64,000 nt of DNA from NCBI GenBank assembly GCA_000004985.1, contig GG738871.1; one strand, given 5' to 3'. The notes under the pieces were generated by a model. The model was not told the DNA's origin, made no database searches, and saw nothing but the letters and a program-made list of their open reading frames with translations. Below are positions 19,615-51,523 of the stretch, piece after piece. Origin of the DNA: Naegleria gruberi (taxonomy: Eukaryota). The position numbers and the translations under genes were made by a program. Positions within the stretch are counted from its first letter, which is position 1; each line of letters begins with the position of its first letter.

Positions 19615-20201
19615 TTTTTCTTTTCTTTCAAAAACTTTTTTGTCTTTTCATCTTCTCTTTTACTTCTTTCTAAATATTCTTTCATGAGATCTTCATCCAT
19701 GGATGATGATTTTGTGGAGTTGTTAGAGGATGATTTCTTCTTTTCTGATGATTTTTGAGTGGCTTGATCTACTACTTTGGATTGACTTGGTGTTATAGGA
19801 GTATTGGTAATAATATTATTTTGAGAATTTACCACTTTGTGAAATAATGATTTTGAGTCATAGTTCAATACATCTTTAAAGGTGGTAATTTTAGAGTTGT
19901 TAATCAATGATTCTTCAGTTTTCTTCTTTTCAATATTTAAATTTGAAGGTGAAGTAGTGGTAGGATCCTTCCGAGAGTGATCAATCACCTTAACTTGTTC
20001 AATTGTTGAATTTGATTTTACTTTTTTAAATTGTTCATAATTTTCTTCCGATTGTTCCTTCTTTCTCTTTCGTTCTTGTTCTTTTTGTTTTTCATTTTCA
20101 ATAGATTTAATCTTGTTTACTTTTTCTCTGTTTTTTTCTGAAGAGATGTGCCACGATTTTTTAGAGAGCAAATCAGACATTTTTTTATTATTTAAATTCA
20201 A
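19611..20201 (-). CDS. CWC25-like pre-mRNA splicing factor (Cir_N domain); likely start at second ATG (20180)
   Basis: The N-terminus MSDLLSKKSWHISSEKNREKVNKIK..E matches the CWC25 N-terminal signature (LKKSWHP...N.EKVWK.EQ). The remainder is K/E/R-rich. Confidence 0.55.
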   Translation of the reverse strand: MNLNNKKMSDLLSKKSWHISSEKNREKVNKIKSIENEKQKEQERKRKKEQSEENYEQFKKVKSNSTIEQVKVIDHSRKDPTTTSPSNLNIEKKKTEESLINNSKITTFKDVLNYDSKSLFHKVVNSQNNIITNTPITPSQSKVVDQATQKSSEKKKSSSNNSTKSSSMDEDLMKEYLERSKREDEKTKKFLKEKKK

Positions 20202-20232
20202 TAAATATTACAATTTCCTTAATTTACAATAC

Positions 20233-21173
20233 TTAATTCAATTTGATATTGTTACTTTCCTTTTCATAGACAGCATCTTCATCAGATCCTCTCAAAATTA
20301 AACGATCATCACTATCTGGAATGTCAACAATTAAAGAGTGGAATGTGAAACGATTTCTAATAATATTTAAAATTCCACTCTTTCTAGAAGCATCACAAGA
20401 AATCATGGCAGTCTTTTTGTTTGGATCTTGAAGTTGGAAAATGAGTTGAACTCTTTTTGGTTTCCAGAATTGAAGCTTTCTAATAAGTGGAACATCGTGA
20501 GCATTATTAAAATCTGGATAAGTGTATGAGTAAGCTCTGAATTTTCCAGGAGTGAGTGGAGTGAGCATATTATCTCTGACACTCTTATTGGCTAAAACCT
20601 TTTTAACAGCAGCTTTATAAACAGCTGATGGACTAATACTGAATGAAACAACTGCCAAATAACTAAGTCCACATGAAATTAAACCAGTGAAGAAACCAGT
20701 GTAAAATGAAACTGTAGCAACATTCTTAAATGTGATAGAACTCAACCAATCAGTAATTTCCCAAACTATTCAACTATTTAATATTAAAATCCAATATACA
20801 TACCAATCCACAAAACACCAAATATTGCTGTTGAAATGATGGCATATCTTACAAAGTACATTTTCCAAAATTTAACAAGAAGTGGAATGTTAATATCTGG
20901 TCTATCTTCATCCATAATACGTTCCTTATCGTTGAAAACTTCAACAGGGACAATTTCCTTTTCCAAATCCCTTTCTTCTTCATAAATAAATAATTTTTCA
21001 TCCTTCTTTTGTGGAGTTTTATTTTCTTGTTTTACTTGATTATTCTTTGAATGGAATGAAGCCACAATAAAAGATCTGTTATTAATATGTACAGATGTAA
21101 TTTTTGTTGTTGGTGATGAAAAGAGTGATGGCTTGGCTGTTTTATGGGCCAAGGAAATTACACGTTTGAACAT
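20233..21173 (-). CDS. hypothetical double-pass membrane protein with N-terminal presequence-like region (possible mitochondrial); exons 20804..21173 and 20233..20765
   Basis: MFKRVISLAHKTAKPSLF is basic and amphipathic, like a targeting sequence. Two TM helices flank a 38-nt intron (GTATGT...gaatag), in phase 1. Confidence 0.5.
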
Positions 21174-21281
21174 TTTTTTTGATTGAATAAAGTTCAATGA
21201 TCTTAAATTATTAAATTGATAATAATAATATTTGCATTGCAATGATATAAATTATTTAATTTCCTATTAGTTTAAACAAAA

Positions 21282-22275
21282 TTATTCAGTCTTCTTAGCT
21301 TTTTCAGCCTTCTTCTTAGCAATTGCTCTAGCATTTTGTTGTCTCAAATTAAAGAACAAAATAAAGAATGAAATAACAATGAAATCACCTGACAATGAAC
21401 CAATCAATGAACCAGTACAAGTGTTTCCCTTAGGTCTTTCCCAGAAGATTTCAACATATGAGTAAGCAGTGAAAGCAGCAGCATCAAAAATGAATTGAGT
21501 TAATTGAATATCAGTCAAATACATCTTCCACCAGACATCAAAACCTAAAGTGACCTTCATGTAGTAATAGTACATAACAATGTGAACAAAAGTATTCAAA
21601 ATAATTGGAATCCATTGTCCAGTACCTCCACTGTACAATCCATAATAACAAATTGACATTGTGGTGACATGGTGATAGGTGTGAATAAATCTGAGTCTAG
21701 ATCTTCTGATAACAAGGAGGAAAGTATCAAAAAGTTCTACATATTTAGACAAGTAATACTATTATTTAAAATTTAAAAATTCAATTTAAAAATTCAATCA
21801 TGTGAAAACATACCATGTAGGTCCAGAATGGAATATAACCAACGTTATACTTATGTTCAGGGTCACACAACAAACTGTAGAAACCATCCTTCAATCCAAT
21901 AGAAGTAACTTCAAACAACAATCCAAAGAAACAGACAAGGGAAATAACAGTCATATTCAAATTATGTAAAAAGGCTAAAACCTTCAAAATCTTTTGTACA
22001 AAGGTTGGATTCTTATGTTCTTGTTCCATTTCCTCTCTGGACTTGGTACCAAGAATAAAACTAAGAGTATAGGAAACAACAAGATATCCGACCAAAGTCA
22101 AACCAATAGATGGTAAACTGGAGAGAGGAGCAGCATCTTGGTCCCAGTTAAATTTGCCACCAACTTCGAGGTAGGTTTCATGAATAGAATTCAATGAAGT
22201 AATATCGAGCTTGTGATAAGCATCAACAAAAGTCTGCAATGTTGTGAGTGGTAACTCTGGATGTGTGGAAGACAT
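21282..22275 (-). CDS. ELO family fatty-acid elongase; exons 21814..22275 and 21282..21758
   Basis: The His box LRFIHTYHH, the MYYYY motif and multiple TM helices are present. A 55-nt intron (21759..21813) has donor ATG|GTATGT. Confidence 0.85.
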
Positions 22276-30404: not shown

Positions 30405-32510
30405 TTATTTTTGTAAATTCTTAATTTCAGCCTCAGTCAACTCTAATTTTTCAAGGAATTGTTGTTGTTGAGAATTTAAGAGTGTTTCAGTACCGAAAAT
30501 TTGCAAAGCTACTGATATAAACCATGATTGAACAGCCATTATAAACAATCTAAACTCAAAATAGAGTTGACTTCTCCAGAATTTGAATTTTTGAGACCAT
30601 GTGTTCAAATCTTGGTAATTTTCAACAGATACTCCTTTGGCAGCACATCTAGCCATAACAGAAAATCTATTCACCTTAGCGCCAAGCTCTCTATTTAAAG
30701 ATCTAAGAATGTTATCGGTTCTTGAGATGAGCAACATTTCTTTTGGCATATTTCTGTAAATGTCCATAAATTCAGCCCTTCTAGACTCAAAGAGCTTACT
30801 GAATTTTTCAAAATCTTCTTCAGTAATTTGCTGTTCAAATGCTGCACTCAAGTCTCCATTTTGATCCAGACCTTGCAACATAATCATTGAGGTATATAGT
30901 CTGTAATCTTTGATGCCAATGGATTTACAATAATCATCCATGCCCTTTTTATCGTTTAAAACTATGCTGACCCAGAATTTAGCATAGTTAATTCTGAAAT
31001 GGTCATCCAAATCTTTGTATAAACCATGGTCTAAGATGACGATTTGTGGTTCTGATGGATTATTTGGGTTTTGCTTTACCATAACATTACTTTGATGTGC
31101 ATCTGCATGCATGTGTCCGTGAATAAACAGTTGCTCTGCAAACGCAGAAATGATTCTAGCTGCGACATCACCTTCATCAAATCCCATAGCTCTAATTCTC
31201 TTTATGTCATTTGAGTTGCATGCATTATCAATGAATTCCATTGTTAAAACTCTTGAGCTAGTGTAATCATCATAGATTTTTGGTATATAGACATCTGGTC
31301 TTGAAGTACCAAATCTTTGAGCTGCCATCTTGGCATTTTCGGCTTCATGTAAGAAATCAAGCTCTGAATTAAGACTGCTCTTGATTTCATCACTAAATTG
31401 TTGATTAACTTCAAGTAATTCATCAATGCTCTTGGAATCTTCTTGCATGTAATATAATCTTATGCTTAATTTAGTTGCAGCATCTCTAGTGTACATATCA
31501 CCAGCAAAAAAGAATCTCACATAGTGATATTGAACCTTTACAGCTACAGACTGACCTTCTTTTGTTCTAGCTCTATGTACTTGAGCTATTGACCCACTGG
31601 CAATTGGTGTTGGATCAAAATATTCAAATAATTCCTCAACTGTTTTTCCAAAATCTTGATAAACAATCTTCTTTACTTCCTCAAAAGAAATTGTTGGAGC
31701 TCTATCTCTCATAACTGAAAGTGTTTCAATATATTCATCTGGAAGGAATCCTGAAAGTGAAGCAATATGTTGTCCAAGTTTAACATATATACCCTTGTTT
31801 TCCGAGCATAAACGTAGCAATCTCTTAGCTGACTTGACATGCAACTCCTTCTTTTTAGCAATAAATTCAGTTGATTTTTTGTCTGGTTTCTCTTGAAACC
31901 AATAATTTGGGTTAAAAGAACTAGTATTCAGAAGGACTAAGTATTCAACTCCAATAATTAAAATTGTTGACATTGTCTTTACATATCTGTCAATTCCTTC
32001 AAATAATTGAATAATTGGTGTTAGTGCATCTAAAAGAAATGGATTATAGAGTTTACTGTATGGATTTTCAATGTCGGATGCATGAAACAGCCATATAGAA
32101 AATTTCATTGCAGCATAAGAAAGTGCACTAATTGTTATTGCTCCAAGTTGAAATAAGCACAAGTATTTTAATATTTTGAGAATCCTTTTAAATAGAGAGG
32201 CTGTTTCCTCCTGTTCATTATTAGTATTTCCTTGTTGATTTGTAAATGTAGAATATTTGTTAAATTGATGATTTTCCTTTTGGTAATTTAACAAAATAGA
32301 GGATGATCCTACTTGTTTGTTAAAATCCAATTTACTTTTTTCCACCACTTGTCCAGTAAGATGATTCCTAATATTGCTAATATGAAATGATCGTCTATTT
32401 GATAAATTTAAATTATTCCGAGTGAGTATTGGTGTAGTAGTAGCAATACTACTAGTCATAACCAGAGGCTTGCCTCTTTTCAATGACTTTAAAAGAATAG
32501 TCATCATCAC
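30405..32510 (-). CDS. ABC1/UbiB-family atypical kinase (ADCK-like) with N-terminal membrane extension
   Basis: ASGSIAQVHRA...VAVKVQ matches the ABC1 domain. Also present are LDFLHEAENA, a DHG/HADAH catalytic region and N-terminal hydrophobic helices. The ORF is 701 aa and uninterrupted. Confidence 0.75.
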   Translation of the reverse strand: MMMTILLKSLKRGKPLVMTSSIATTTPILTRNNLNLSNRRSFHISNIRNHLTGQVVEKSKLDFNKQVGSSSILLNYQKENHQFNKYSTFTNQQGNTNNEQEETASLFKRILKILKYLCLFQLGAITISALSYAAMKFSIWLFHASDIENPYSKLYNPFLLDALTPIIQLFEGIDRYVKTMSTILIIGVEYLVLLNTSSFNPNYWFQEKPDKKSTEFIAKKKELHVKSAKRLLRLCSENKGIYVKLGQHIASLSGFLPDEYIETLSVMRDRAPTISFEEVKKIVYQDFGKTVEELFEYFDPTPIASGSIAQVHRARTKEGQSVAVKVQYHYVRFFFAGDMYTRDAATKLSIRLYYMQEDSKSIDELLEVNQQFSDEIKSSLNSELDFLHEAENAKMAAQRFGTSRPDVYIPKIYDDYTSSRVLTMEFIDNACNSNDIKRIRAMGFDEGDVAARIISAFAEQLFIHGHMHADAHQSNVMVKQNPNNPSEPQIVILDHGLYKDLDDHFRINYAKFWVSIVLNDKKGMDDYCKSIGIKDYRLYTSMIMLQGLDQNGDLSAAFEQQITEEDFEKFSKLFESRRAEFMDIYRNMPKEMLLISRTDNILRSLNRELGAKVNRFSVMARCAAKGVSVENYQDLNTWSQKFKFWRSQLYFEFRLFIMAVQSWFISVALQIFGTETLLNSQQQQFLEKLELTEAEIKNLQK

Positions 32511-35456: not shown

Positions 35457-36778
35457 TTACAACAATGAAGCAATGAAAGAAATCAAAGCAATCAAAAGTA
35501 CAGAGAATGAAGAAACAGAGCTAGAATTAATCTTACTTGATTTTGGTGAGGCCTTTGGTGAAATAGTTGGAGTGACAACATCAGCAGCTGGAGCAGGATC
35601 AACACAAGCATCATTTGGAGAGGACAATGAAATAGCTGAAGGATTTGGAATACCAATAGCAGCAACAGCAATTCTACCACCAGCATTACCAGTAGCAGAA
35701 GTTGAAGTACCATCATCTCTAGTGGTGTGAAGAACCAAACCACGTCCAATAATATTTCTAACACCAGTCAATTCAATCAAATCAACATTGAAATCAAAAG
35801 TAGCAATACCACTATCATCAGCAGTAACGTTACCTAAATCACCAACGTGTCTTTCAGTAGATCCTGGATAACCGTGTGTCTTATTGAATGGATTGAAATG
35901 GCCACCAGTTCTAGTACCATCTGTTAAATCAAGTTCACCATAAGTGTGAATATGCAAACCATGAGTTGATTGAGCAGTCAATCCACAAATTTTACCATAA
36001 ACTCTAGTCAATCCACTACCTGAATTATATGAGAAAATAACTCTACCAGTAACATTACCAGTTGCAGCAGCAGTCTTTTGGAAAACAGCAACACCAATAT
36101 TATCAGTATAAACATCATTATAAGTCATAGTATTAGCAGCATTATTTGCAATACCAATTACACAATGAGCTGCAGGATTACTGGCATTACCAGTTGGTTG
36201 AGCAATTTTACCCAAATCAGCTGCCATATGTAAACGAATAGCTCTACCAACAACACTAATACTTCCATTAAATTGTGGAAGAGTTGAAGTAATAACACCT
36301 GAATATCCCTTTGATAAATCAATATTACCCAAATCACCAATGTGAATATCACTTCCTGTATTATCAGATGGAAGTGCATGATTCTTACCATATGGATTAT
36401 AATGTCCACCAGTTGCAGTAGCATCAGCTAATTTATCATCATTATTATTATTATTATTATTATTAATATATTTGTTACAATATTAAATATATTTGTTACA
36501 ATTAATATTAAAAGTATTTAAAACATACCAATATAACCATATTGATGAATGTGGAATCCTAATGTTTTACCTTGCAAAGCAGTTGGTACAGTTGATTGAT
36601 CCAATGACCAAGCAACACTTGTAGTTCCATCACTTGATTGTGTGAAATAAACTGCTCCTTTTAATCCTTTAGCATAGGTTGTACCTCTCAAGAGACAATG
36701 AGCAATTTGACCATTAATTGATGAAATTAATGAAGCAATGAGAACAAGCAATGTAATTAATAGTAATTTAGAATTCAT
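35457..36778 (-). CDS. secreted, GPI-anchored tandem Cu/Zn superoxide dismutase (SodC-like); exons 36529..36778 and 35457..36427
   Basis: A signal peptide MNSKLLLITLLVLIASLISSINGQ is present. SOD module 1 spans the 101-nt intron (GFHIHQYGYIG|ADATATGGHYNP). Module 2 is GLHIHTYG...GGHFNPF..THG...ERHVGDLGN...GRGLVLH...GNAGGRIAVAAIGI, with all Cu/Zn ligands present. The C-terminus is S-rich followed by a hydrophobic tail (LLIALISFIASLL), consistent with a GPI signal. Confidence 0.8.
36428..36500. repeat. (ATT)n microsatellite plus direct duplication of atatatttgttacaat inside the SOD intron
   Basis: The sequence attattattattattattattatt and the duplicated 16-mer are read directly. Confidence 0.5.
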
Positions 36779-36941
36779 TTTGTTGTTTTTTTTATAAAGC
36801 TGATTGTTGCAACTTTCAACGTTCAACAACAACTAATTGGCATTGATTGACATTATGAATTGGTTCGATGTTGTTCATTCACACAAATATTCAATTCAAC
36901 TTGTTGAAAATTATCGAGCTGGTAAGTTGGATTCTCAAAGA

Positions 36942-36958
36942 GGCGCGAATTTTGGCGC
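36942..36958. promoter_or_regulatory. double E2F-like element GGCGCGAATTTTGGCGC ~165-180 bp upstream of the SOD gene start
   Basis: Read directly. The element contains TTCGCGCC in reverse and TTTGGCGC. Confidence 0.35.
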
Positions 36959-37680
36959 TCTCAATTTTTCACCAATTATTAGACCTGACATTTGGCAGAT
37001 TGATGCTTCCAAATCGGGTATGTGAGGTCAAGGAGGAAAATTGATACTGTTGTTTTGGATTTAATAGTGCATTAATAAGCCTACTAGTTTCTGGTAGTGA
37101 ACAGACAATCAAATATTTCACATTCAATAGTTAATATTTAACATTATTCGAAAGTGAAATGAGCTTTGAATTTCTAATAAAAATGATGGAATATGAATAA
37201 GAAACTCTAGTGATATGATTGTAATGATGTTGAAGAAACTAGAAGTGATGGTCTCATCAATTTTTTCTCAAATGGCAACAAAGAATTTCTAATAACATAT
37301 TCGAACGAAAGATTCTCATATTATTATTTATTTCCTATGTTGTATAAAAATTACAATCACACTAGATCTTTACAACACTTACAGTTTTTTTTTTACCATA
37401 CCTCCTCAATAGTTAGTCAACCAAATTCTAATAACTTACTTGAGGTCGTGCTATTTAATTTCCAATTAGAAAGTTGAGCAATAGAAAGGCGCACAATTAT
37501 ACATTTGATCCGACACCTCATTGCAGGGTGTAATTGTCCATTCTTTATTATCAACATGTTTTTGACATCCAACTTGAAAAAATTGTTGTCATATATTATC
37601 TATATTATTAGAAAGCAAAAAAGTCACTAAATTTGTTTTTGATATAGAGAATTGGTACCCTATAAAAGTGACATCTTTAA

Positions 37681-37800
37681 AATTATTCAAGAAAATACAT
37701 CATCATCATTATCAGCAGAATCATTAATTTATTATCATCATCATTGTCATCATCAATAATTTTATAATTGAAATTAATAATAATAATAATAATCGGTAGT
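37681..37800. repeat. (CAT)n/(AAT)n microsatellite cluster in the FtsX-gene upstream region
   Basis: Runs of catcatcatcat..., atcatcatcattgtcatcatca and aataataataataataat are read directly. Confidence 0.4.
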
Positions 37801-37821
37801 GATTGTCGGAGTTAATAATTC

Positions 37822-40800
37822 ATGTCTTTAAAAAAAAATATTCAGATATTGGTGGATCGTTTAGATTCAACACTCTCTGTGAATTCATCCTCCGATCATC
37901 ATCAAGATCTTAGTAATTATCCTCTTCATATTGAAGATCAATCAGAGGATAACAATAATATTGAACAAGAATTAATAACAGAGAGTCCAACATCTATTTC
38001 AAGACATCAACTCATGTTTAATAGTGGTGGTGCTAATAATAATCACAATCATAATCATAATGGTATGGATCATGATGATGAATTTGATGAAGATTCATTA
38101 TTATTATCCAACAATAATGGAAGTGTAAATAATTATCAAGATGACGACGTTGTGTTAAATTCCTATTTGAATGAAAGGACAATTGGTGATTTAACAAAGA
38201 AACCCTATATTCCATTAAAACAAGATAGAAAGAAAATGACTCGATTACAAAATATTTATTACATGTTTTTACAATACATGATGTTTACTTGGAAGGAAGT
38301 TTCAAAACGTAAAGTTTCATATTTGATTGGAACTGCGAGTTGTTTTGTTGTAGTTTGGATGATTATGGTTTCAGTTTCTGCACTTTCACAAGTTCCTTTG
38401 GTGTTTATTCGTTTGGCAGAGTTACAAGTTGGTGAATTTGATTTTAAATTGAAAACTGGCATTAATATGGCAGGTATTTCACTAAATTATACAAGAATTA
38501 ATTTACAAATTCAAAATGCTACAAGAGGTAATCCTGAAATGACTCAACAATTTTCATATCATTCACCTAGATTTACATTTAGTACAAGGGCATTTACAAA
38601 TTGTGAAAGTATAACACAAGATTTATCTATTTTTAAATATCAAGATTTTAAATGGATGTATAATTCAACAAGTAGTTCATGTGGTTTGAGAGAAAATCAA
38701 AAATCCATTCAATCATCCGATTATAATAATGGACAATATTGTGTTCCAATTGATTGTAAAAAAGTTGCTGAAAGATTATCACTTTATTTAATTGATACTG
38801 ATAAAGAACGTAGAATGCAATTCGGAAGAACTTATCCATATTCAAAATTGGAAAAGGGGAAGGCAATTATTGGTTCTGGTCTTGCTGAAACATTATCTGT
38901 TAAAAAAGGTGATACTATTCTATTGAATATTCAAACAATGAATAGCTTTACTGGACCATATCGTGATTCTCACATGATTGGTTATGTCTATCCAAAGGCA
39001 AAAGGATCATTGGAAAAATTAATACCAAAACAAATACAAGAGCTATTGGATAGTAATGAATTTCATGAATTTGAAAGAAAGAATATAAGATCACAAGCAA
39101 TTCTCAATGAAATACTTGAAGAGAAATATTCTGATTTATTCGATGAGGATCAAGCATTGAAAAATAGAAGACTTACATTCAATGGTGGTGCCACTTACAT
39201 TCCAGTAATTGTTGAAGATGTTGCCAATAATGCATATGGAAAATATCAATCAACGAATTTGGAAAATGCAATTATTATGGAATATGATTCATTACTTGCT
39301 CATGTTGCAGAGTTTTTGAATGAAGATCTCTTTTCCAAATCAGAAAAGTCAACTCTTTCACAATTAGATTTGTATGATTATGCCAGTGAAGTTTATGTTA
39401 ATTATCCACCAAATAGATTAACTGCCTATAATGAAAATGATTACAAAGTGATTAGAGAAAAGATTACAAAATTTGCTTCCACTTCAATGTATTTAATGGG
39501 TTTTAATCAACTTTCATCAAGTTTCCCAATATTGGAAATGATGGAAGTTACACAATTTTTTGCCCTCTTTGTTGGTTTAATTATTTCAATCATTTTAATT
39601 GTTTTGTGTTTACTTTCTGTTGTATTAATTTACAGTTTGTTAATGATTAATGTTGAAAATAGAAGATATGAAATGGGTTTATTGAGAATGATTGGTTTAA
39701 AGAGAAGAAATCTTGTTGAACTCATTCTAGTTCAAGCCATGTGGTATGGTATTCCAGCTTGGATTTTAGGGTTAATCATTGGTCAATTATCTTATTCTGT
39801 AGTTGCAATTTTGCTTAGTACTCAATTGGAAGCAAACGTTTCATATATTGTCTCTGGTGAAGCTTTTGCATTGGCAACATTCCTTGGCTTGACTGTTCCT
39901 GTTTTATCTGCCATTTTACCAATCAAGACAGCCCTCGGTCAAAATTTACACGATTCACTCGATACTCAAAGATCAGGAACAGCAGCTGTTAAATATTCAA
40001 TTGAAAGAGCTGAGGGAGAATCCATCTCATGGACATCTATTGTTATGGGTGTTGTTGGTATAATTTTTGGTTTTTCAGTTTATTATGTCATGCCACTCAG
40101 TATGCTTACATTTAATATTACAATTATGATGTACATGTTTATGGCTGTTATTTTGGCCATGTTATTGGGTTTAGTTTTATTGAGTTTGAATTTTGAAAAT
40201 ATTATTGAATTTATTGTAGTTTTATTTACCATTAGAATATTTGAAAAAGTATCAGTTATTGATCTAGTTGAAAAGAATCTAATTGCTCATCGTGAGAGAA
40301 ATAGAAAGACAACTCTAATGTTTTCATTGAGTTTGGGTTTTATTATATTTTCATCTGTTTTATTCAATACACAAATTACAGCATTCAAATATAATGTAAT
40401 GAGAGGTGCAGGAACAGAACTCATTGTTGGTACCAGTAGATTGAATGCATTTGCTCAGAATCCAAATATCATTGGAACTATACAGGAATTTGCTGATAAT
40501 AATCCTAATTGGTTTGTTGGATCCACTTATTGGACATTTGATTTAACAAGAGTTACATCACCAATTGATAATACTAAAATAAGAACTGATGGTGGTCTTG
40601 TTAATAATGATATTTATATTCGTGCCATTGCTCCAAACTTTTTTAATATTACAAATTCAAAGTTTTTAAGAATTGATGAAAGAATTCAACCTGAAAATAA
40701 GACAGTATTTACAAAATATAAGAGTAATTTAGATGAATATTTATATACTGTTGAAGGAAGTAGTCAATTAATATTAGGAACTTATTTTAAATCAAATTTA

Positions 40801-41592
40801 GGAGTTAATATCAAAGATACAGCTGTTCTTCAAATTACTGAATCAACTTCAAGAATGCCAAATTATAGATATGAATTATTCCAAGTTGGTGCTTTTTTGA
40901 GTGCATGTCCAGTAGCTCTCTATTCTGAATTTCCAAGATTTGGAACACAAAATTTACTTGTCAGTGTTCCAACCTATTTACGTCTCCTTGGAAAGAATTC
41001 AAATTATACAGCAACAAGTCTTCCAATTGATGCTGTCTTTTTAAAATTAACTGAAAATGCAAAGAATAATAAGGCTGAATTTAGAAAGTTGAGATCTACT
41101 CTCCAACGTGTCATTAGTCCATTCCCAGGACTATTCATTAGAGATATTAGTCAAGAATTAGATCCAGTTGAAATTGCAGTTTCAGTCATGAACTTTTTCT
41201 TCCTCTTCACAGCAGCAGTTGCCCTCGTCATTTGTTTCTTTAGTTTAATTTCTAGCATGTATAGTAATATTAATTCACAAGCAAAGGAAATTGGAATTTT
41301 AAGAGCTATTGGAATGAAGAAATTTGCAATTATTAGAGTTTACATTTATGAGGCATTTGTTTTGATATCAGCTGCTGCAGTTTCTGGTGTGGCCATTGGT
41401 TTGGCTATTGGACAAACTATGGCTATGCAAAATACCTTAATTACAGAATTACCAATTGATTTTGTATTTCCTTATCAAATTGTTGCACTTGTACTTGGAA
41501 GTGCAATTATTTTTAGTTTCTTTTCTTCCTTCTTCCCTATTTATTCACTTGTTAATATGCCAATTGTTAGCGTTTTGAAAAAACTTAATTAA
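37822..41592 (+). CDS. bacterial-type duplicated FtsX/MacB-like ABC-transporter permease (two [TM - large extracytoplasmic domain - 3-4 TM FtsX] units), with eukaryote-style low-complexity N-terminal extension; intronless
   Basis: FtsX-like modules end each half: ...LLRMIGLKRRNLVELILVQAMWYGIPAWILGLIIGQ... and ...GILRAIGMKKFAIIRVYIYEAFVLISAAAVSGVAIGLAIGQ... Each is preceded by a ~350-aa hydrophilic loop. The N-terminal 170 aa are N/H/D-rich. The ORF is 1256 aa. Confidence 0.7.
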   Translation: MSLKKNIQILVDRLDSTLSVNSSSDHHQDLSNYPLHIEDQSEDNNNIEQELITESPTSISRHQLMFNSGGANNNHNHNHNGMDHDDEFDEDSLLLSNNNGSVNNYQDDDVVLNSYLNERTIGDLTKKPYIPLKQDRKKMTRLQNIYYMFLQYMMFTWKEVSKRKVSYLIGTASCFVVVWMIMVSVSALSQVPLVFIRLAELQVGEFDFKLKTGINMAGISLNYTRINLQIQNATRGNPEMTQQFSYHSPRFTFSTRAFTNCESITQDLSIFKYQDFKWMYNSTSSSCGLRENQKSIQSSDYNNGQYCVPIDCKKVAERLSLYLIDTDKERRMQFGRTYPYSKLEKGKAIIGSGLAETLSVKKGDTILLNIQTMNSFTGPYRDSHMIGYVYPKAKGSLEKLIPKQIQELLDSNEFHEFERKNIRSQAILNEILEEKYSDLFDEDQALKNRRLTFNGGATYIPVIVEDVANNAYGKYQSTNLENAIIMEYDSLLAHVAEFLNEDLFSKSEKSTLSQLDLYDYASEVYVNYPPNRLTAYNENDYKVIREKITKFASTSMYLMGFNQLSSSFPILEMMEVTQFFALFVGLIISIILIVLCLLSVVLIYSLLMINVENRRYEMGLLRMIGLKRRNLVELILVQAMWYGIPAWILGLIIGQLSYSVVAILLSTQLEANVSYIVSGEAFALATFLGLTVPVLSAILPIKTALGQNLHDSLDTQRSGTAAVKYSIERAEGESISWTSIVMGVVGIIFGFSVYYVMPLSMLTFNITIMMYMFMAVILAMLLGLVLLSLNFENIIEFIVVLFTIRIFEKVSVIDLVEKNLIAHRERNRKTTLMFSLSLGFIIFSSVLFNTQITAFKYNVMRGAGTELIVGTSRLNAFAQNPNIIGTIQEFADNNPNWFVGSTYWTFDLTRVTSPIDNTKIRTDGGLVNNDIYIRAIAPNFFNITNSKFLRIDERIQPENKTVFTKYKSNLDEYLYTVEGSSQLILGTYFKSNLGVNIKDTAVLQITESTSRMPNYRYELFQVGAFLSACPVALYSEFPRFGTQNLLVSVPTYLRLLGKNSNYTATSLPIDAVFLKLTENAKNNKAEFRKLRSTLQRVISPFPGLFIRDISQELDPVEIAVSVMNFFFLFTAAVALVICFFSLISSMYSNINSQAKEIGILRAIGMKKFAIIRVYIYEAFVLISAAAVSGVAIGLAIGQTMAMQNTLITELPIDFVFPYQIVALVLGSAIIFSFFSSFFPIYSLVNMPIVSVLKKLN

Positions 41593-46151: not shown

Positions 46152-48414
46152 ATGAATACAATCTTCTTCAACGTTGAAAATAAGCCTATCGCAGCTTTTG
46201 CTGTTGTTTACTTGAGTGAACAAAAAGTAAACTTTAAAGTTTCAAAGAATCCAGGTATCACTTTGGCTGAATCTGCCAGTGGGTAGGTGTCTTTCTTTAT
46301 TATTATTTTTATAATAATAATAATAATTAATTTTATTATTGTTGTTGATGATGATTAAAAAGTGTGAGAGGAAACTTTAATGTTGCTCAAGTTCTTTCAA
46401 AGAATACTAAACTCGCAGCTCAAAATACTGATGACGTTTTTGTTGCTTTTGAAACTGCTAGTGAAATTGCTAAATCAGGACTTATTGAAGAATTGGATGT
46501 TTGCATGCAAAGATTAGATGCTTTACTTACAACCAAGACATATTTCTCTGGTGAAGATTTGTCTGTTTGTGATTTGTGTATTTATGAAAGTCTTAAACAT
46601 CACAAATTAGTTATGGGATATTTGAAGAGATTTGAAAAATCAATTCCAAATGTTGTTCGTTATTTCTTCACTATTCATAGAAATCCAAAGATTCAACAAG
46701 TTGTTAAAATTTTGGATAATGCTGCTAAAGCTATGACTAGTACTGATGAAGTTTTAAATCCAACTCCTGCTGCAAGGATAACAAGTCAAATTGTGACAAG
46801 ACTGAAAAGAAGGAATCTCAACCTGAAATTAATTTGGAACTTCCACATGCTCAAATGGGTAAAGTTGTTACCAGATTCCCACCTGAAGCATCTGGTTTCC
46901 TTCATATTGGTCACGCTAAGGCTGCTTTGATGAATAATTATTTTGCTAAGAAATATAATGGTAAACTTATTATGAGATTTGATGATACTAATCCAGATAA
47001 GGAAAGAGAAGAATATGAACATGCTATTCTCTCAGATTTGGAAAGTTTAGGTGTTAAACCTGATATTCATGTTCGTTCATCTGATCACTTTGATAAGTGT
47101 ATTGAATTTGCTGAACAATTGATTAGAGAAGGAAAGGCTTATATGGATGATACTGCAGTTGAAGAATTGAGAAGAATGAAAATGGAAGGTATTGAATCTG
47201 CTAACAGAAATAATTCTGTTGATAAGAATATGGAAATGTGGAAGGAATTACTTGCTGGTACTGAAAATGGAAAGAAGTCAGTCCTCAGAGCTAAGATTGA
47301 TATGAAATCATTGAATAAGACTATGCGTGATCCTGTTCTTTTCAGAAGTAAGGATAAACCTCATCCAAAACTTGGTGATAAGTATAAGGCATATCCAACT
47401 TATGACTTTGTTTGTCCAGTTGTTGACAGTTTGGATGGTGTTACTCATGCTTTGAGAACTTCTGAATATAACGATAGAAATGAACAATACTATTGGATTA
47501 TTGATGCTTTGGGTATTAGAAAGCCATTCTTGTACGATTTCAGTAGATTGAACTTTGCTAATACTGTCATGTCTAAGCGTAAATTGCAAAAGATTGTTGA
47601 TATTGGAGTTGTTGAAGGATGGAATGATCCTCGTTTCCCAACTGTTCAAGGTCTCTTACGTAGAGGTTTGACTGTTGAAGCTTTGTACAATTTCATTTTG
47701 GAACAAGGTGCTTCTCGTAACGTTGTTACTATTCAATGGGAAAAGTTGTGGGCTGAAAATAAGAAGGTTATTGATCCAAAGGTTCCAAGATATTGTGCTA
47801 TTGAAAAGACTGATATTGTTAAATTCCATTTATCAAATGGTCCACAAACTATGGAATCAAAGGAAAATGCAAAGCACAAGAAGAATGATTCTCTTGGTAA
47901 GAAGACTACCTATTATACCAATACCATTTATTTGGATAGAGAAGATGCTGCTGCCATTGAACAAAATGAAGAAGTTACTTTGATGGATTGGGGTAATGCT
48001 ATTATTCAAGAAATTGTTAAGGATGACAGTGGTAAGGTTGTTGAATTGAAGGGTGTTTTGCACTTGGAAGGTGACTTTAAGAAGACTAAGAAGAAGTTGA
48101 CTTGGTTGCCAGTTAACCCAGAAGTTAATACTGAAAATGTTCAAATTGTTCATTTCGGTCATTTGATTAACAAGATTTCTTTATCTTCTGATGATAATAT
48201 TGAAGATGTTGTTAATCGTAATTCCAAGACTGTTACTACTTCAATTGGTGATCATAATTTAAAGTCATTGAAGAAGGGTGATATTATTCAATTGGAAAGA
48301 AGAGGTTATTTCATTTGTGATGTTCCATTTGATGGAAAGTCATTGACTTTATTCAATATTCCAGATAGTGTTTCAACAAAGACAACTGCTGCTGCTGCTT
48401 CTACTTCTAAATAA
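46152..48414 (+). CDS. cytoplasmic glutamyl-tRNA synthetase (class I) with N-terminal GST-like domain; intron 46283..46362, plus an apparent -1 frame change near 46750..46830
   Basis: HIGH is present (FLHIGHAKAA) and KMSKS is present (VMSKRKL). The GST-C-like region has the ...FSGEDLSVCDLCIY... core. Exon 1 MNTIFFNV...AESASG ends at GG|GTAGGT. The catalytic frame (frame 1) opens only after stops at ~46745, while the upstream GST frame (frame 2) runs on to 46930. Confidence 0.8.
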
Positions 48415-48418
48415 AAAA

Positions 48419-51400
48419 ATGATAAACTCTAAACCAAAGAGTTTACTTCAAATTGCTAAAGATCGGAAAAACAAATTATCATCACAATCTTCTCAATCAT
48501 CTCAATCATCACAAACATCAAATGATAATAATAACACTAATTCATCATCATCATTAACAATATTGAATCATTCTAGTAATACTAGTAGTAATAACAATGT
48601 TAATACTACTAATAATATTGGAAATAATAGTACTACTACTTCTACTAATAAGACGACATCAACATGTAAATTAATAATTAAACCCAAATCTTCCATTAGA
48701 CTCTATTCCGAAACTGTTGATTTATCATTTGAATATTCAAGTGATAAAGAAAGTGACAATGACGATATTCAAATCATTCATACTCCAGTTAATAAGAAAC
48801 TTTCAACTCCTTCATCATCACTAACATCACTATCATCAACTACTTCCACTCCATCATCACTTTTAAAATCACTATCATTACTACCAAATAATAATAATAA
48901 CATGACCACTTTAAAAACCACAACTAAGAATGAAATATCAAATAATAATAATAATTTATCATCATCATTATCAACATCTACAAATTTAATAGTAGAAACA
49001 TATAGTTCATTATTAGAAGATTTAACTCAACAAGATGATGATATAAATAGTAATTCATTAAATATAAATAGTAATTCATTAAATATTAAAGAACCATTAA
49101 TTAAAAAAAGAAAACAATTTAAAATTCCAAGTTTTTACATGACAGATGAAGAAATTAAACATGACATTTCTTTATCTAAAACAATAATTCCAATTTTAAA
49201 TATTCAAGATAAATTTTCAATTCATTTTACAAAACCATTTTGGACAATTTATAAAGATGGAAATGAAATTCTATTATTAGATTTTAGAAAACCAATATTT
49301 ACAAATTTATTATTTTTAAAATTAATTTATTATTTTAATTTTAATAAAACTAAAATAATTGAAAAATCTAAATTTATACATTCAATTAAAGATTTAATTA
49401 TTTTATTAAAACCATATAGTACTTTATTAGTAAATAATGAAAATTTAGAACAATTAAAAAAGGAAATTGAAATTATTTTAAATGAAGATTTAAAAAATAA
49501 TTTTATAGAAAATGAAAATGTAAAATATGTAAATAATTTTCAATATTTAATTTTAGAATATTTAAATACAAATATTCATAAATTTAAAAATACTAAAAAA
49601 TCTAGAAATTTAAGAAAATTAAGAATGTGTGAAGAATTACTAAAAAAGGAATTTAATTCTAAATTTATAAAAAGTTTTGAAAAATCTGAAAATTCATTTT
49701 ATTCAGATTTTAATTTTAATTTATATGATTTCATGTCAATTTATTTTAATAAGGAAAAATTTGAATATTTAAATCTAAATGAAATTGATTTTAATAATTC
49801 CATAAAAGAATTTCATAAAATTTTAAATGAACTCATCATTTCAACTATATACTATAATAAGGGTCAATATATAGGTGATATTATAGCAACAAATTTATTA
49901 AAAAAATCCATAAAAAATAATACTACTATATATGGCAGTGAATACCAAAATAGTAATAATGATGAAAAACAACACCAATATTATATTAATAGTGATAATA
50001 GTGATAATGATGATAGTGATGATAGTGATAGTGATGAAGAAGAAGAAGAAGAAGAAAATGAAATAATTCTAGATAGTCATATTCCACATGGATTTGGAAG
50101 TTGGAAATTTATAGAAGAAAATAATGAAATTTTCTATAAAGGGGAATGGAAAAAAGGGAAAAAGGAAGGATTTGGTATTTTACAAACATTTGAAATATTA
50201 TATGAAGGAGAATGGAAAGAGAATGAAATGAATGGATTTGGAATATTTAAAATATTAAATGGATATCATAAAGGTAGTATTTATTATGGTAATTTTAAAA
50301 AAGGAAAGAGAAATGGATTTGGAATTCAATTTTATAAATATGAAGGAAATAATGAAATATTAAAAGATGATTTGAATGAATTTAATGAATTTTATAGAGG
50401 TGAATGGTTAAATGATGTTAGAAATGGAAAAGGTGAATTTAAATCAAAATATGAATGGAAATTGGGAGAATGGAAAAAACATGAATTTAAAAATGGAATT
50501 TTACTAATTAAGGAATGTTTAGAAATTCAAGATTCAATCATTACAAATTGTATTCATTCACAAATAGAAATTGAAAAATATTCAAAAAAAACAAAAAAAT
50601 CTCAAATTCCTTCAACTATACTTCCATTTATATTTTCATTAGATAATTTAGATAAATTAACAGTTGTAGATGCAATTATTGCATATGGTAATCAATCTAA
50701 ATCACCTAAACGTACAATTTATAATGGTTATTGTTTTAGATCAAAATTGGAAAGTCGTTGGGCTAAATTCTTTGAATGTTGTGGAATTGAATATCAATAC
50801 GAATGTAAAACTTTTATTTTAAAAGATGGAACATCATATACTCCTGATTTTTATTTACCTTTTCTCAATTTTTGGATTGAAATTAAACCAAATTATCCAA
50901 GTGAAGAAGAAAGAGTTAAAGCTCAATTATTAAGTTTTGTTTTACAAAAACAGACTAGTAATAATAATCAACATAATGAATTGACAGAATTTGAAAAGAA
51001 ATATGAAAGATATTTACAATCAAATCCAAGAATTTTCATTTTATATGGAGATGTTAGTGCTCCATTTATTAAGAAATTTCAATCAGGAGGAATGGCAATT
51101 GAATTTTTCAAAACAGATCAACAAGAAAATTCTATTCAGAATAGAACAAATAAGAGAATTACACCTCCAAGGAGTGGCAATACTACTTCTACTACCAGTA
51201 ATCCAATTAGAGAATCTGTTCTATTTAATACTACTGAACCATTGGGCTGGTGTCAATGTCATCATTGTGGTAAAATTTCACTTGAATATAGATGTAAACC
51301 CAAGTGTTGTACTAACAAGACAGCAGATAATAGTACTGCTTCGACAAGTTTAGTTGATTCAGTGGTGACATCAGAGCTTGGTCCAACTTTGAGTAATGCT

Positions 51401-51523
51401 TATTATGCAGTTACCAAATTATCGTTTGATGAATGGAGAGTGAGAAATGAAAATACATTCTTTAACAGTATAACACAAGAGATTGAAATTACAACAGAAA
51501 AGAAACGAAGTAAATTCTTTTAA
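48419..51523 (+). CDS. MORN-repeat protein with C-terminal PD-(D/E)xK nuclease-like domain and Cys/His cluster; long N/S-rich N-terminus
   Basis: MORN repeats (YKGEWKKGKKEGFGI, YEGEWKENEMNGFGI, YYGNFKKGKRNGFGI, YRGEWLNDVRNGKGE) are present. The nuclease-like core is SKLESRWAKFFECCGIEYQYE...YTPDFYLP...WIEIKP, giving E ... PD ... E-x-K. A CHHC-like cluster follows (WCQCHHCGKISLEYRCKPKCC). Confidence 0.6.
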   Translation: MINSKPKSLLQIAKDRKNKLSSQSSQSSQSSQTSNDNNNTNSSSSLTILNHSSNTSSNNNVNTTNNIGNNSTTTSTNKTTSTCKLIIKPKSSIRLYSETVDLSFEYSSDKESDNDDIQIIHTPVNKKLSTPSSSLTSLSSTTSTPSSLLKSLSLLPNNNNNMTTLKTTTKNEISNNNNNLSSSLSTSTNLIVETYSSLLEDLTQQDDDINSNSLNINSNSLNIKEPLIKKRKQFKIPSFYMTDEEIKHDISLSKTIIPILNIQDKFSIHFTKPFWTIYKDGNEILLLDFRKPIFTNLLFLKLIYYFNFNKTKIIEKSKFIHSIKDLIILLKPYSTLLVNNENLEQLKKEIEIILNEDLKNNFIENENVKYVNNFQYLILEYLNTNIHKFKNTKKSRNLRKLRMCEELLKKEFNSKFIKSFEKSENSFYSDFNFNLYDFMSIYFNKEKFEYLNLNEIDFNNSIKEFHKILNELIISTIYYNKGQYIGDIIATNLLKKSIKNNTTIYGSEYQNSNNDEKQHQYYINSDNSDNDDSDDSDSDEEEEEEENEIILDSHIPHGFGSWKFIEENNEIFYKGEWKKGKKEGFGILQTFEILYEGEWKENEMNGFGIFKILNGYHKGSIYYGNFKKGKRNGFGIQFYKYEGNNEILKDDLNEFNEFYRGEWLNDVRNGKGEFKSKYEWKLGEWKKHEFKNGILLIKECLEIQDSIITNCIHSQIEIEKYSKKTKKSQIPSTILPFIFSLDNLDKLTVVDAIIAYGNQSKSPKRTIYNGYCFRSKLESRWAKFFECCGIEYQYECKTFILKDGTSYTPDFYLPFLNFWIEIKPNYPSEEERVKAQLLSFVLQKQTSNNNQHNELTEFEKKYERYLQSNPRIFILYGDVSAPFIKKFQSGGMAIEFFKTDQQENSIQNRTNKRITPPRSGNTTSTTSNPIRESVLFNTTEPLGWCQCHHCGKISLEYRCKPKCCTNKTADNSTASTSLVDSVVTSELGPTLSNAYYAVTKLSFDEWRVRNENTFFNSITQEIEITTEKKRSKFF

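What the first reader, a model, noticed from the sequence alone, without database searches (positions are those of the whole stretch)
37822..41592. Orphan duplicated FtsX/MacB-type permease with eukaryotic low-complexity N-terminal extension and no ATPase partner nearby
The 1256-aa ORF contains two tandem MacB-like units (TM - large extracytoplasmic domain - FtsX 3-4 TM bundle), as in bacterial YbbP/BceB/LolCE-type permeases. Such permeases normally work with a separate ABC ATPase, which is encoded adjacently in bacteria. No ABC ATPase gene is present within 20 kb on either side. The gene is intronless but carries a 170-aa N/H/D-rich N-terminal extension typical of host proteins. Mechanotransmission-type permeases in a eukaryote could act as a sensor or extracytoplasmic remodelling device. 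It may pair with a generic host ABC ATPase.
Basis: partly seen in the sequence, partly recalled or inferred. Interest (0 to 1): 0.65.

Follow-up and report, generated by a model that had tools for sequence, protein, structure and literature searches.

The report
Eukaryotic YbbP-like ABC3 permease gene
This Naegleria gruberi gene encodes a ten-helix, internally duplicated FtsX/MacB-type membrane protein from a large family found across eukaryotes that is already catalogued but has no known function; having no ATPase gene next door is normal for a eukaryote.

Summary
ORF 37822-41592 (+) encodes 1256 aa with two Pfam FtsX domains and a 4+2+4 helix topology with two large extracytoplasmic domains. 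Its predicted structure (pLDDT 84) matches E. coli YbbP best. No ABC ATPase is encoded anywhere in the 64 kb window.

It is not an oddity. The window is Naegleria gruberi nuclear DNA and the gene is already deposited as a "predicted protein". It belongs to a family of several hundred sequence clusters in Heterolobosea, euglenozoans including trypanosomatids, Trimastix, amoebozoans including dictyostelids, and chytrid fungi. TCDB lists this family as E-ABC3 (3.A.1.207). Gene adjacency is not expected in a eukaryote, so "orphan" carries little weight.

The two cytoplasmic coupling helices are the most conserved parts of the family. I infer, but could not test, that an ATPase dimer encoded elsewhere drives it; the small ATPase-only "ABCH" proteins of protists are candidates.

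Two by-products:
- The public 1017-aa gene model is wrong: its start is too far downstream and it has two false introns.
- A divergently transcribed tandem Cu/Zn superoxide dismutase gene sits upstream in all four heterolobosean loci that could be checked. This recalls the adjacent YbbAP-TesA pair, but it is only a lead.

The parts
37822..41592 (+). Complete intronless CDS (1256 aa plus stop) of the E-ABC3 / YbbP-like duplicated FtsX permease
   Evidence: ORF list; Pfam FtsX x2; 100% identical to N. gruberi 'predicted protein' P0001 wherever that model is aligned
37822..38241 (+). Cytoplasmic N-terminal extension (aa 1-140). It is low-complexity (N/D/S/H-rich, NNNHNHNHN at 38035-38061) and contains the ortholog-conserved stretches 'DEDSLLL' (38086-38106) and 'YLNERTIGDLTKKPY'
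   Evidence: Composition; ortholog alignment A1 shows conservation upstream of the public model's start at M154
38242..38430 (+). Amphipathic pre-TM1 helix (aa 141-162), then TM1 with its stalk extension (aa 164-203)
   Evidence: AF2 helices (model residue +135); hydropathy
38431..39525 (+). Extracytoplasmic domain 1 (aa ~204-568). C261, C287, C307 and C312 are invariant among the 6 heterolobosean sequences; across the 92-sequence family three of them (C261, C287, C312) are among the most conserved columns. There are three N-x-S/T sequons and a lineage-variable helical insert at aa 388-446
   Evidence: Alignment A1 invariants; family-wide conservation; AF2 mixed alpha/beta domain; Foldseek matches to LolC/LolE periplasmic domains
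38608..38691 (+). Segment removed as 'intron 1' in the public gene model. It is coding
   Evidence: It contains W278, M279, Y280, C287 and G288, invariant in all 6 heterolobosean sequences including the 28%-identical P0006
38983..39159 (+). Segment removed as 'intron 2' in the public gene model. It is most likely coding (a variable insert)
   Evidence: 177 nt, in frame, no stop. In the equivalent segment, N. lovaniensis and a related Naegleria contig differ at 19 nt, 13 of them at third codon positions, giving 12 synonymous and 4 non-synonymous codon changes
39526..39939 (+). First FtsX bundle: TM2 (aa 569-613), coupling helix 1 'RYEMGLLRMI' (aa 615-624, nt 39664-39693), TM3 (628-669), TM4 (679-706)
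   Evidence: Pfam FtsX best stretch 590-708; AF2; the coupling loop is among the most conserved regions (2.85 bits)
39940..40287 (+). Inter-repeat linker: disordered cytoplasmic loop (aa 707-736), linking helices TM5 (737-756) and TM6 (766-804), second pre-TM helix (810-822) leading into the near-invariant H823/R826/N827 motif
   Evidence: AF2; hydropathy; the pre-TM7 segment is the most conserved region of the family (3.09 bits); collinear with prokaryotic 10-TM duplicated permeases (hhalign)
40291..41145 (+). TM7 with stalk (aa 824-863) and extracytoplasmic domain 2 (aa 864-1108)
   Evidence: AF2; Foldseek
41146..41589 (+). Second FtsX bundle: TM8 (aa 1109-1152), coupling helix 2 'AKEIGILRAI' (aa 1154-1163, nt 41281-41310), TM9 (1167-1208), TM10 (1218-1244), short C-terminal helix
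   Evidence: Pfam FtsX second stretch; the family profile aligns 'eqskEIgilraiG' to MacB 'ERTREIGIRMAVGA' and YtrF 'ERTQEIGIMKAIGA'; conservation 2.88 bits
35457..36778 (-). Divergently transcribed neighbour: a two-exon gene (101-nt intron, 36428-36528) for a 406-aa tandem Cu/Zn superoxide dismutase with a signal peptide, a Ser/Pro/Lys-rich stalk and a hydrophobic C-terminal tail. It is a possible extracytoplasmic partner (lead only)
   Evidence: Splice and translation; Pfam Sod_Cu x2, E=1.6e-57; the same head-to-head pair occurs in N. lovaniensis, Willaertia magna and an unnamed heterolobosean contig
36779..37821 (.). 1043-bp intergenic region shared by the two divergent genes (a presumed bidirectional promoter region)
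   Evidence: Coordinates; no function was tested

Best explanation
The gene encodes a Naegleria gruberi member of the eukaryote-wide 'E-ABC3' family. This is a single-chain type VII (MacB-fold) ABC permease with the same architecture as E. coli YbbP: two FtsX four-helix units joined by two linking helices, each unit carrying a large extracytoplasmic domain on a helical stalk. The N-terminal tail and both coupling helices face the cytoplasm. The two large domains, which carry conserved cysteines and glycosylation sequons, face outside the cell or the lumen of an organelle. The most likely mechanism is mechanotransmission, as in YbbAP, LolCDE, MacB and FtsEX. Two copies of a separately encoded ABC ATPase would dock on the two coupling helices. 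ATP binding and hydrolysis would open and close the stalks and move the outer domains, which act on something on the far side of the membrane: extracting a hydrophobic or lipid-anchored molecule, or controlling a partner protein. Fold, topology, homology, family distribution and the absence of an ATPase domain or neighbour are shown. The existence and identity of the ATPase, the membrane it sits in, and the substrate are inferred.
For: - Domains and topology: Pfam FtsX x2; 10-helix 4+2+4 topology.
- Structure: the AF2 model has pLDDT 84.2 and pTM 0.78. Its best PDB matches are E. coli YbbP 9ge7_A/9ge6_A over the full length (E~1e-16), then BceB, LolE/C, MacB, HrtB and YtrF.
- Homology: the eukaryotic family profile is collinear with prokaryotic ~850-aa duplicated permeases over 829 columns (hhalign probability 99.95%, E=6e-38). 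The duplication and TM5-6 linker were therefore inherited, not reinvented.
- Prokaryotic context: one of the closest prokaryotic relatives (the second-best prokaryotic hit) has its ATPase gene overlapping its start codon.
- Conservation: across 92 eukaryotic homologues, the two coupling loops (2.85 and 2.88 bits) and the pre-TM7 cytoplasmic motif (3.09 bits) are more conserved than the membrane helices (2.0-2.7) and far more than the outer domains (1.4-1.5). The coupling motif aligns with that of MacB and YtrF.
- Precedent: in YbbAP the coupling helices between TM2-3 and TM8-9 each bind one YbbA ATPase (PMC12646458). Fused permeases of this superfamily always have a separate ATPase (PMC5985334).
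- Candidate partners: small ATPase-only 'ABCH' proteins with no known membrane partner exist in Dictyostelium, Tetrahymena and trypanosomes (PMC3743828; PMC2984421; PMC9505544). The permease family is present in dictyostelids and trypanosomatids.
Against: - No partner ATPase was identified. None lies in the window or beside 9 homologues in other eukaryotes.
- None is fused in seven long homologues checked, six of them 1343-1709 aa.
- The N. gruberi genome could not be searched as a whole with these tools.
- Conservation of the coupling motif is also what defines the FtsX Pfam domain, so it does not prove that an ATPase binds.
- Bacterial 'orphan' duplicated permeases exist (the ADOP family; my recollection of the TIGR03434 description).
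- No expression, localisation or substrate data exist.
- MacB_PCD (PF12704) is not detectable by sequence in the outer domains.
Confidence: 0.6

Rival explanations
1. The eukaryotic family has lost its ATPase. It acts as an ATP-independent membrane scaffold, receptor or facilitator, with the conserved cytoplasmic loops serving folding or a non-ABC partner.
For: No ATPase gene lies next to the gene in the window or in 9 other eukaryotic loci, and none is fused in seven long homologues checked. The weak best NCBIfam hit is the 'ADOP duplicated permease' family. From my recollection, that family was named for lacking adjacent ATPases.
Against: Non-adjacency means nothing in eukaryotes. The coupling loops and the pre-TM7 motif are the most conserved parts of the protein across very distant eukaryotes and keep the MacB/YtrF coupling-helix consensus. 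Every structurally studied relative uses an ATPase dimer. ATPase-only ABC proteins without known membrane partners exist in lineages that have this family.
Confidence: 0.2
2. The permease works with the tandem Cu/Zn superoxide dismutase encoded head-to-head with it. It would hold, activate, metallate or release this surface enzyme, as YbbAP does with TesA, FtsEX with EnvC, or LolCDE with lipid-anchored proteins. This is compatible with the best explanation and adds a specific partner.
For: The divergent SOD-permease pair is present in all 4 heterolobosean loci where upstream DNA is available: N. gruberi, N. lovaniensis, Willaertia magna and an unnamed contig. In Willaertia no other neighbour tested is shared with N. 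gruberi. The SOD has a signal peptide and a hydrophobic C-terminal tail, so it would sit on the same side of the membrane as the permease's large domains. TesA is likewise encoded next to ybbAP (PMC12646458). A distant paralog-like gene (P0006) has a different secreted-type enzyme, Glyco_hydro_cc, as its divergent neighbour.
Against: Only four related species were checked, and Naegleria and Willaertia are sister genera. Head-to-head pairs can persist simply because they share a promoter. The pair is absent at the N. lovaniensis paralog and in the Lotmaria, Diplonema and other eukaryote loci. No physical or co-expression evidence exists. GPI anchoring is only inferred from the tail.
Confidence: 0.12
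3. The gene is a recent bacterial transfer into Naegleria, or bacterial contamination of the assembly.
For: FtsX permeases are overwhelmingly bacterial, and the gene has no introns.
Against: The gene's G+C content (~30%) matches the rest of the window and its flanks are typical eukaryotic genes. Orthologues occur in N. lovaniensis and Willaertia, in synteny in N. lovaniensis. Homologues are spread across Discoba, Metamonada, Amoebozoa and chytrid fungi. In the word-filtered search (8000 candidates scored) eukaryotic members score at least 470 bits against the family profile and the best prokaryotic hit scores 123 bits.
Confidence: 0.02

Closest known systems
TCDB Eukaryotic ABC3 (E-ABC3) family, TC 3.A.1.207 (UniProt label 'ABC3 transporter permease C-terminal domain-containing protein')
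   Same: It is a eukaryotic, FtsX/ABC3-type integral membrane protein without an ATPase domain. Its homologues carry this UniProt label in N. lovaniensis, Planoprotostelium and Polysphondylium, and 'FtsX-like permease family' in the trypanosomatid Lotmaria. The TC family and its number are cited in PMC7997004.
   Different: Nothing is shown to differ. I could not compare directly with TCDB reference sequences. I found no functional study of any family member in the searchable literature.
E. coli YbbP of the YbbAP-TesA complex (PDB 9GE6/9GE7/9GE8)
   Same: It is the best structural match, over the full length. The topology is identical: 10 TM helices, large outer domains between TM1-2 and TM7-8, coupling helices between TM2-3 and TM8-9, and a TM5-6 linker. 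An extracytoplasmic enzyme is encoded next door in both cases (TesA there, tandem SOD here).
   Different: Sequence identity is only 11-12%. The NCBIfam YbbP equivalog scores 18 bits against a cut-off of 999. The protein is about 450 aa longer, with a eukaryotic N-terminal tail, bigger outer domains, conserved cysteines and a variable insert. No adjacent YbbA-like ATPase is present. The neighbouring enzyme is a SOD, not a thioesterase.
BceB (BceAB-S antimicrobial peptide sensing/detoxification)
   Same: Both are single-chain 10-TM type VII permeases with separate ATPases. BceB gives the second-best set of structural matches.
   Different: BceB has one large outer domain, between TM7 and TM8. 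This protein has two. There is no two-component system context here.
LolCDE / MacB / FtsEX (dimeric type VII systems)
   Same: They share the four-helix unit, the stalk, the fold of the outer domain (Foldseek matches to LolC/LolE periplasmic domains) and the coupling-helix motif.
   Different: Those are two separate chains (homo- or heterodimers), and MacB has a fused ATPase. This protein is one fused chain without an ATPase. Scores against the NCBIfam LolC, LolE and MacB models are far below their cut-offs.
ADOP (Acidobacterial duplicated orphan permease, TIGR03434)
   Same: Both are duplicated FtsX permeases whose genes lack an adjacent ATPase. ADOP is the best, though weak, NCBIfam hit.
   Different: The score is 44 bits against a cut-off of 622, so this protein is not a member. 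ADOP is a bacterial lineage-specific expansion.

Membership tests
Pfam FtsX (PF02687) | Score above the Pfam gathering threshold | tested here: met
   98.8 bits against a cut-off of 25.5, E=2.8e-28, two stretches
Type VII (MacB-fold) ABC permease | Four-helix unit with a large extracytoplasmic domain between TM1 and TM2, raised on helical stalks | tested here: met
   Hydropathy; AF2 model with pLDDT 84; Foldseek probability 1.00 to YbbP, BceB, LolC/E, MacB, HrtB and YtrF
Type VII (MacB-fold) ABC permease | Cytoplasmic coupling helix between TM2 and TM3 with the E-(I/L/M)-G-x-(L/M)-(R/K)-x-x-G consensus | tested here: met
   'RYEMGLLRMIG' (aa 615-625) and 'AKEIGILRAIG' (aa 1154-1164) are helices in the model. 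They align to the MacB and YtrF coupling region and are among the most conserved regions of the family
Type VII (MacB-fold) ABC permease | Functions with a dimer of ABC ATPase domains | not testable with these tools
   No ATPase in the ORF, the window or 9 homologous eukaryotic loci. A genome-wide search of N. gruberi was not possible
YbbP-type fused architecture | Single chain with 10 TM helices, two outer domains (TM1-2 and TM7-8) and a TM5-6 linker | tested here: met
   top Foldseek hit YbbP over ~1140 alignment columns; hhalign collinear with prokaryotic duplicated permeases over 829 columns
YbbP orthologue (NCBIfam NF041854 equivalog) | Score above the curated cut-off | tested here: not met
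   18.4 bits against a cut-off of 999
ADOP (TIGR03434) | Score above the curated cut-off | tested here: not met
   44 bits against a cut-off of 622.3
MacB_PCD (PF12704) periplasmic core domain | Sequence match to the Pfam model | tested here: not met
   No hit at E<=1. None of the eukaryotic homologues carries PF12704, whereas most of the prokaryotic relatives listed do
MacB_PCD (PF12704) periplasmic core domain | Fold of the outer domain resembles the periplasmic domains of LolC/LolE/MacB | tested here: met
   Foldseek matches to the isolated LolE (5udf) and LolC (5naa, 6f3z) periplasmic domains, probability 1.00, TM-score 0.45-0.66 relative to the target. A weak collinear sequence match links the two outer domains around the 'GD(T)' motif
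MacB proper | N-terminal fused ATPase domain | tested here: not met
   No Walker A in the ORF; Pfam finds FtsX only
BceB | A single large outer domain, located between TM7 and TM8 | tested here: not met
   There are two large outer domains, of ~365-400 and ~245-270 aa
TCDB E-ABC3 (3.A.1.207) | Eukaryotic homologue of ABC3-type porters, clustering with the TCDB reference members | tested here: inconclusive
   Eukaryotic origin and ABC3 homology are shown. The family's name and number come from PMC7997004

The most novel reading that the evidence does not exclude
Eukaryotes have a widespread, unstudied type VII ABC 'mechanotransmission' machine. In this reading the E-ABC3 permease is powered by the enigmatic ATPase-only 'ABCH' proteins of protists. 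In heteroloboseans it operates on a co-encoded, membrane-tethered extracellular tandem Cu/Zn superoxide dismutase, making it a eukaryotic counterpart of YbbAP-TesA or LolCDE. The standard structural classification of ABC transporters lists type VII only in its prokaryotic table; its eukaryotic table has only types IV and V (PMC8386196).
Probability: 0.12. Interest if true: 0.7.

Novelty: already known. Interest (0 to 1): 0.35.

Why it matters
Type VII ABC systems (MacB, LolCDE, FtsEX, BceAB, YbbAP) are treated in the structural literature as machines of the bacterial cell envelope. The consensus classification of ABC transporters lists only types IV and V for eukaryotes (PMC8386196).

This gene is a reminder that a YbbP-like family of several hundred sequence clusters exists across protists and chytrid fungi. 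It includes trypanosomatid parasites and Naegleria. No function, location or ATPase partner is known for it.

The gene and family are already in databases, so this is not a discovery. It does point to concrete, testable questions:
- Do the orphan ATPase-only 'ABCH' proteins of protists power these permeases?
- Does the conserved neighbouring surface superoxide dismutase work with this one?

The corrected gene model is needed for any experiment. It restores 153 N-terminal residues and two wrongly spliced-out segments.

Tried and rejected
1. The first AlphaFold run used only 6 sequences and gave an unusable model (pLDDT 47). A rerun with 52 sequences gave pLDDT 84.
2. The Foldseek afdb50 library was not available.
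3. I looked for a 'Rosetta stone' fusion. Seven long homologues (six of 1343-1709 aa, one of 1056 aa) contain only FtsX and no ATPase domain.
4. I looked for an adjacent ATPase in eukaryotic homologue loci: Lotmaria, two N. lovaniensis loci, Diplonema, Willaertia and four metagenomic contigs. None has one.
5. I could not obtain any eukaryotic 'ABCH' sequence. Anjard & Loomis 2002 is not held, and the Tetrahymena supplement lists only gene ids. The last large protein search was not spent on a bacterial ATPase query, because its 8000-candidate word filter would return only bacterial ATPases.
6. Literature searches for a characterised eukaryotic FtsX/ABC3 protein found nothing relevant.
7. I tested whether an acidic dileucine sorting motif in the N-terminal tail is a family-wide feature. 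Enrichment is weak (17 of 78 tails against 10.8 expected by shuffling). It is conserved only among the close heterolobosean orthologues.
8. Bacterial transfer or contamination is rejected (see rival explanations).
9. The 'ABC1' gene at 30405-32510 is an ADCK-type atypical kinase, not an ABC ATPase.
10. The Asgard link was considered. A Promethearchaeota permease (P0008) scores 98 bits, no better than bacterial relatives at up to 123 bits. Its contig ends at the gene, so its downstream context is unknown.

Full report
**1. The observation**

The window has 20-37% G+C throughout, and about 30% around the gene. ORF 37822-41592 (+) encodes 1256 aa. Its ATG is preceded by an in-frame stop two codons upstream.

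Pfam finds FtsX (PF02687) at E=2.8e-28 in two stretches and nothing else. NCBIfam gives only weak matches, all far below the curated cut-offs, to ADOP, LolC/E, MacB and YbbP. The two halves of the protein match each other at E=1e-6 across TM2, the coupling loop and TM3.

Hydropathy gives this layout:
- TM1, a 398-aa loop, then three helices
- two further helices
- TM7, a 272-aa loop, then three helices

About 167 residues precede TM1. They are rich in N, D, S and H.

**2. No ATPase in the window**

- No Walker A motif occurs in any of the six frames of the whole 64 kb.
- tblastn with two genuine partner ATPases of a prokaryotic relative finds nothing at E<=10.
- Pfam on 20 ORFs within about 20 kb on either side shows ordinary eukaryotic genes: AP-4 epsilon adaptin, WD40 proteins, cyclophilin, an ADCK/ABC1 atypical kinase, Cu/Zn SOD, an SDR, HMG-BRCT, Glu/Gln-tRNA synthetase and a MORN protein. 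None has ABC_tran.

**3. Source and gene model**

The best database hit is 'predicted protein [Naegleria gruberi]' (P0001, 1017 aa). It is 100% identical wherever the two align. However, it starts at M154 and lacks aa 263-290 and 388-446. The window is therefore N. gruberi nuclear DNA and the gene is already public.

The public model is wrong in three places:
- **Start.** Orthologues share 'E(D/E)xSLLL' and 'YLNExTIYDLxKKPY' upstream of M154.
- **'Intron 1'.** It contains W278, M279, Y280, C287 and G288, which are invariant in all six heterolobosean sequences.
- **'Intron 2'.** It is 177 nt, in frame and free of stops. In the equivalent segment, two other Naegleria sequences differ at 19 nt, 13 of them at third codon positions, giving 12 synonymous and 4 non-synonymous codon changes. 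That is a coding signature.

**4. Family**

An exhaustive profile search of 1.84 billion representative proteins found 778 clusters at E<=1e-30. The best 150 all score 445-1885 bits, and most of them are about 1000-1300 aa long.

Named members come from many eukaryotic lineages:
- Heterolobosea: Naegleria (including a paralog) and Willaertia
- Euglenozoa: Diplonema papillatum and D. japonicum, Euglena gracilis, Ploeotia, and the trypanosomatid Lotmaria passim ('FtsX-like permease family')
- Metamonada: Trimastix marina
- Amoebozoa: Protostelium, Planoprotostelium, Rhizamoeba and the dictyostelid Polysphondylium
- Chytrid fungi: Borealophlyctis and Fimicolochytrium
- An MMETSP marine transcriptome

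In the word-filtered search (8000 candidates scored), eukaryotic members score at least 470 bits against the family profile. The best prokaryotic proteins score at most 123 bits. These are ~850-aa duplicated permeases, most of them carrying MacB_PCD plus FtsX.

Even so, profile-profile comparison shows full-length collinearity with those prokaryotic proteins: 829 columns, probability 99.95%, E=6e-38. The fused 10-helix architecture was therefore inherited. A Promethearchaeota protein is no closer than the bacterial ones.

TCDB already lists a 'Eukaryotic ABC3 (E-ABC3) family, TC 3.A.1.207' (PMC7997004). I found no paper that characterises a member.

**5. Structure**

With a 52-sequence alignment, AlphaFold gives pLDDT 84.2 and pTM 0.78. 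A 6-sequence alignment had failed.

Foldseek against the PDB puts E. coli YbbP (9ge7_A, 9ge6_A) first, over the whole length at E~1e-16. BceB, LolE/C, MacB, HrtB and YtrF follow, along with the isolated LolC/LolE periplasmic domains.

YbbP has 10 TM helices, outer domains between TM1-2 and TM7-8, coupling helices between TM2-3 and TM8-9, and a TM5-6 linker. It binds two YbbA ATPases and one periplasmic enzyme, TesA, which is encoded next to it (PMC12646458). In the model here, the corresponding coupling helices are aa 615-624 (RYEMGLLRMI) and aa 1154-1163 (AKEIGILRAI).

**6. Mechanism**

Across 92 eukaryotic homologues, conservation differs by region:

| Region | Conservation (bits) |
|---|---|
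| Pre-TM7 cytoplasmic motif | 3.09 |
| Coupling loops | 2.85 and 2.88 |
| Membrane helices | 2.0-2.7 |
| Outer domains | 1.4-1.5 |

The family profile aligns its coupling motif to 'ERTREIGIRMAVGA' of MacB and 'ERTQEIGIMKAIGA' of YtrF. One of the closest prokaryotic relatives (the second-best prokaryotic hit) has its ATPase gene overlapping its own start codon. In this superfamily, fused permeases always have a separate ATPase (PMC5985334).

I therefore infer an ATP-driven mechanotransmission device whose ATPase is encoded elsewhere in the genome. Plausible candidates are the small ATPase-only 'ABCH' proteins:
- Dictyostelium: no predicted membrane domain (PMC3743828)
- Tetrahymena: 355 and 408 aa (PMC2984421)
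- T. cruzi: 303 and 318 aa (PMC9505544)

Dictyostelids and trypanosomatids also have the permease family. This link is untested. I could not obtain an ABCH sequence or search the N. gruberi genome.

No ATPase is fused in the long homologues or adjacent in nine eukaryotic loci. That is expected in eukaryotes, so it neither supports nor refutes the inference.

**7. A lead from the neighbourhood**

Directly upstream on the other strand (35457-36778, with one 101-nt intron) lies a 406-aa protein with these features:
- a signal peptide
- two Cu/Zn-SOD domains (Pfam E=1.6e-57, two stretches)
- a Ser/Pro/Lys-rich stalk
- a hydrophobic C-terminal tail

The same head-to-head pair is present in N. lovaniensis, Willaertia magna and an unnamed heterolobosean contig. 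That is all four loci with upstream DNA. In Willaertia, none of the other N. gruberi neighbours tested is retained.

The pair is absent from the paralog locus and from the other eukaryotes examined. A distant relative, P0006, instead has a glycosyl hydrolase as its divergent neighbour.

By analogy with YbbAP-TesA this could mark an extracytoplasmic partner. It could equally be a conserved bidirectional promoter. I rate the partner reading at about 0.12.

**8. Verdict**

However, the gene and its family are already known to databases, and the 'orphan' argument does not apply to a eukaryote. What remains open is the family's function and its ATPase partner. Interest is moderate to low (0.35).

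Noticed in passing
window 35457-36778 (-), with L008:7586-8860, L009:8134-9462 and L011:536-1933: A tandem Cu/Zn-SOD gene (signal peptide, two Sod_Cu domains, Ser/Pro-rich stalk, hydrophobic C-terminal tail) is transcribed divergently from the permease gene in N. gruberi, N. lovaniensis, Willaertia magna and an unnamed heterolobosean contig. In Willaertia it is the only shared neighbour among those tested.
   Followed up: partly
window 37822-38280, 38608-38691, 38983-39159: The public N. gruberi gene model (P0001, 1017 aa) starts 153 codons too far downstream. It also splices out two in-frame segments that are coding, judged by ortholog conservation and synonymous-substitution bias.
   Followed up: yes
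window 38086-38106 (aa 89-95, DEDSLLL): An acidic dileucine-like [DE]xxxL[LI] motif in the cytoplasmic N-terminal tail is conserved in the four heterolobosean orthologues that have N-termini. This hints at adaptor-dependent sorting. Across the wider family the enrichment is weak (17 of 78 tails against 10.8 expected).
   Followed up: partly
L012:286-912 (-) next to L012:1401-4967 (+): The 28%-identical relative P0006 has a Glyco_hydro_cc glycosyl hydrolase gene as its divergent upstream neighbour. This is another enzyme of a kind that is typically secreted, sitting head-to-head with a permease of this family.
   Followed up: no
L002:10001-13558 and L002:14439-17840: In the trypanosomatid Lotmaria passim, two paralogs of this permease family lie in tandem on the same strand.
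   Followed up: no
L010:575-2653 and L010:2914-4704: In a Logan-assembled Naegleria contig the orthologue is called as two genes (692 and 596 aa, both FtsX). This probably reflects a frameshift, an intron or an assembly break, not a real split.
   Followed up: no
window 30405-32510 (-): This ORF matches the 'ABC1 atypical kinase-like domain' (ADCK/UbiB type). The name could mislead: it is not an ABC ATPase.
   Followed up: yes
window 18970-22275 (-): A run of seven short, consecutive minus-strand ORFs (150-215 aa each). One has a partial ELO (GNS1/SUR4) match and one a weak HTH_60 match. This may be a multi-exon gene or a repeated or degraded region.
   Followed up: no
window 48368-51523 (+): A 1051-aa ORF with MORN repeats and a weak sub-threshold match to Phage_endo_I (E=2.7e-4, 21 bits against a cut-off of 29).
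   Followed up: no
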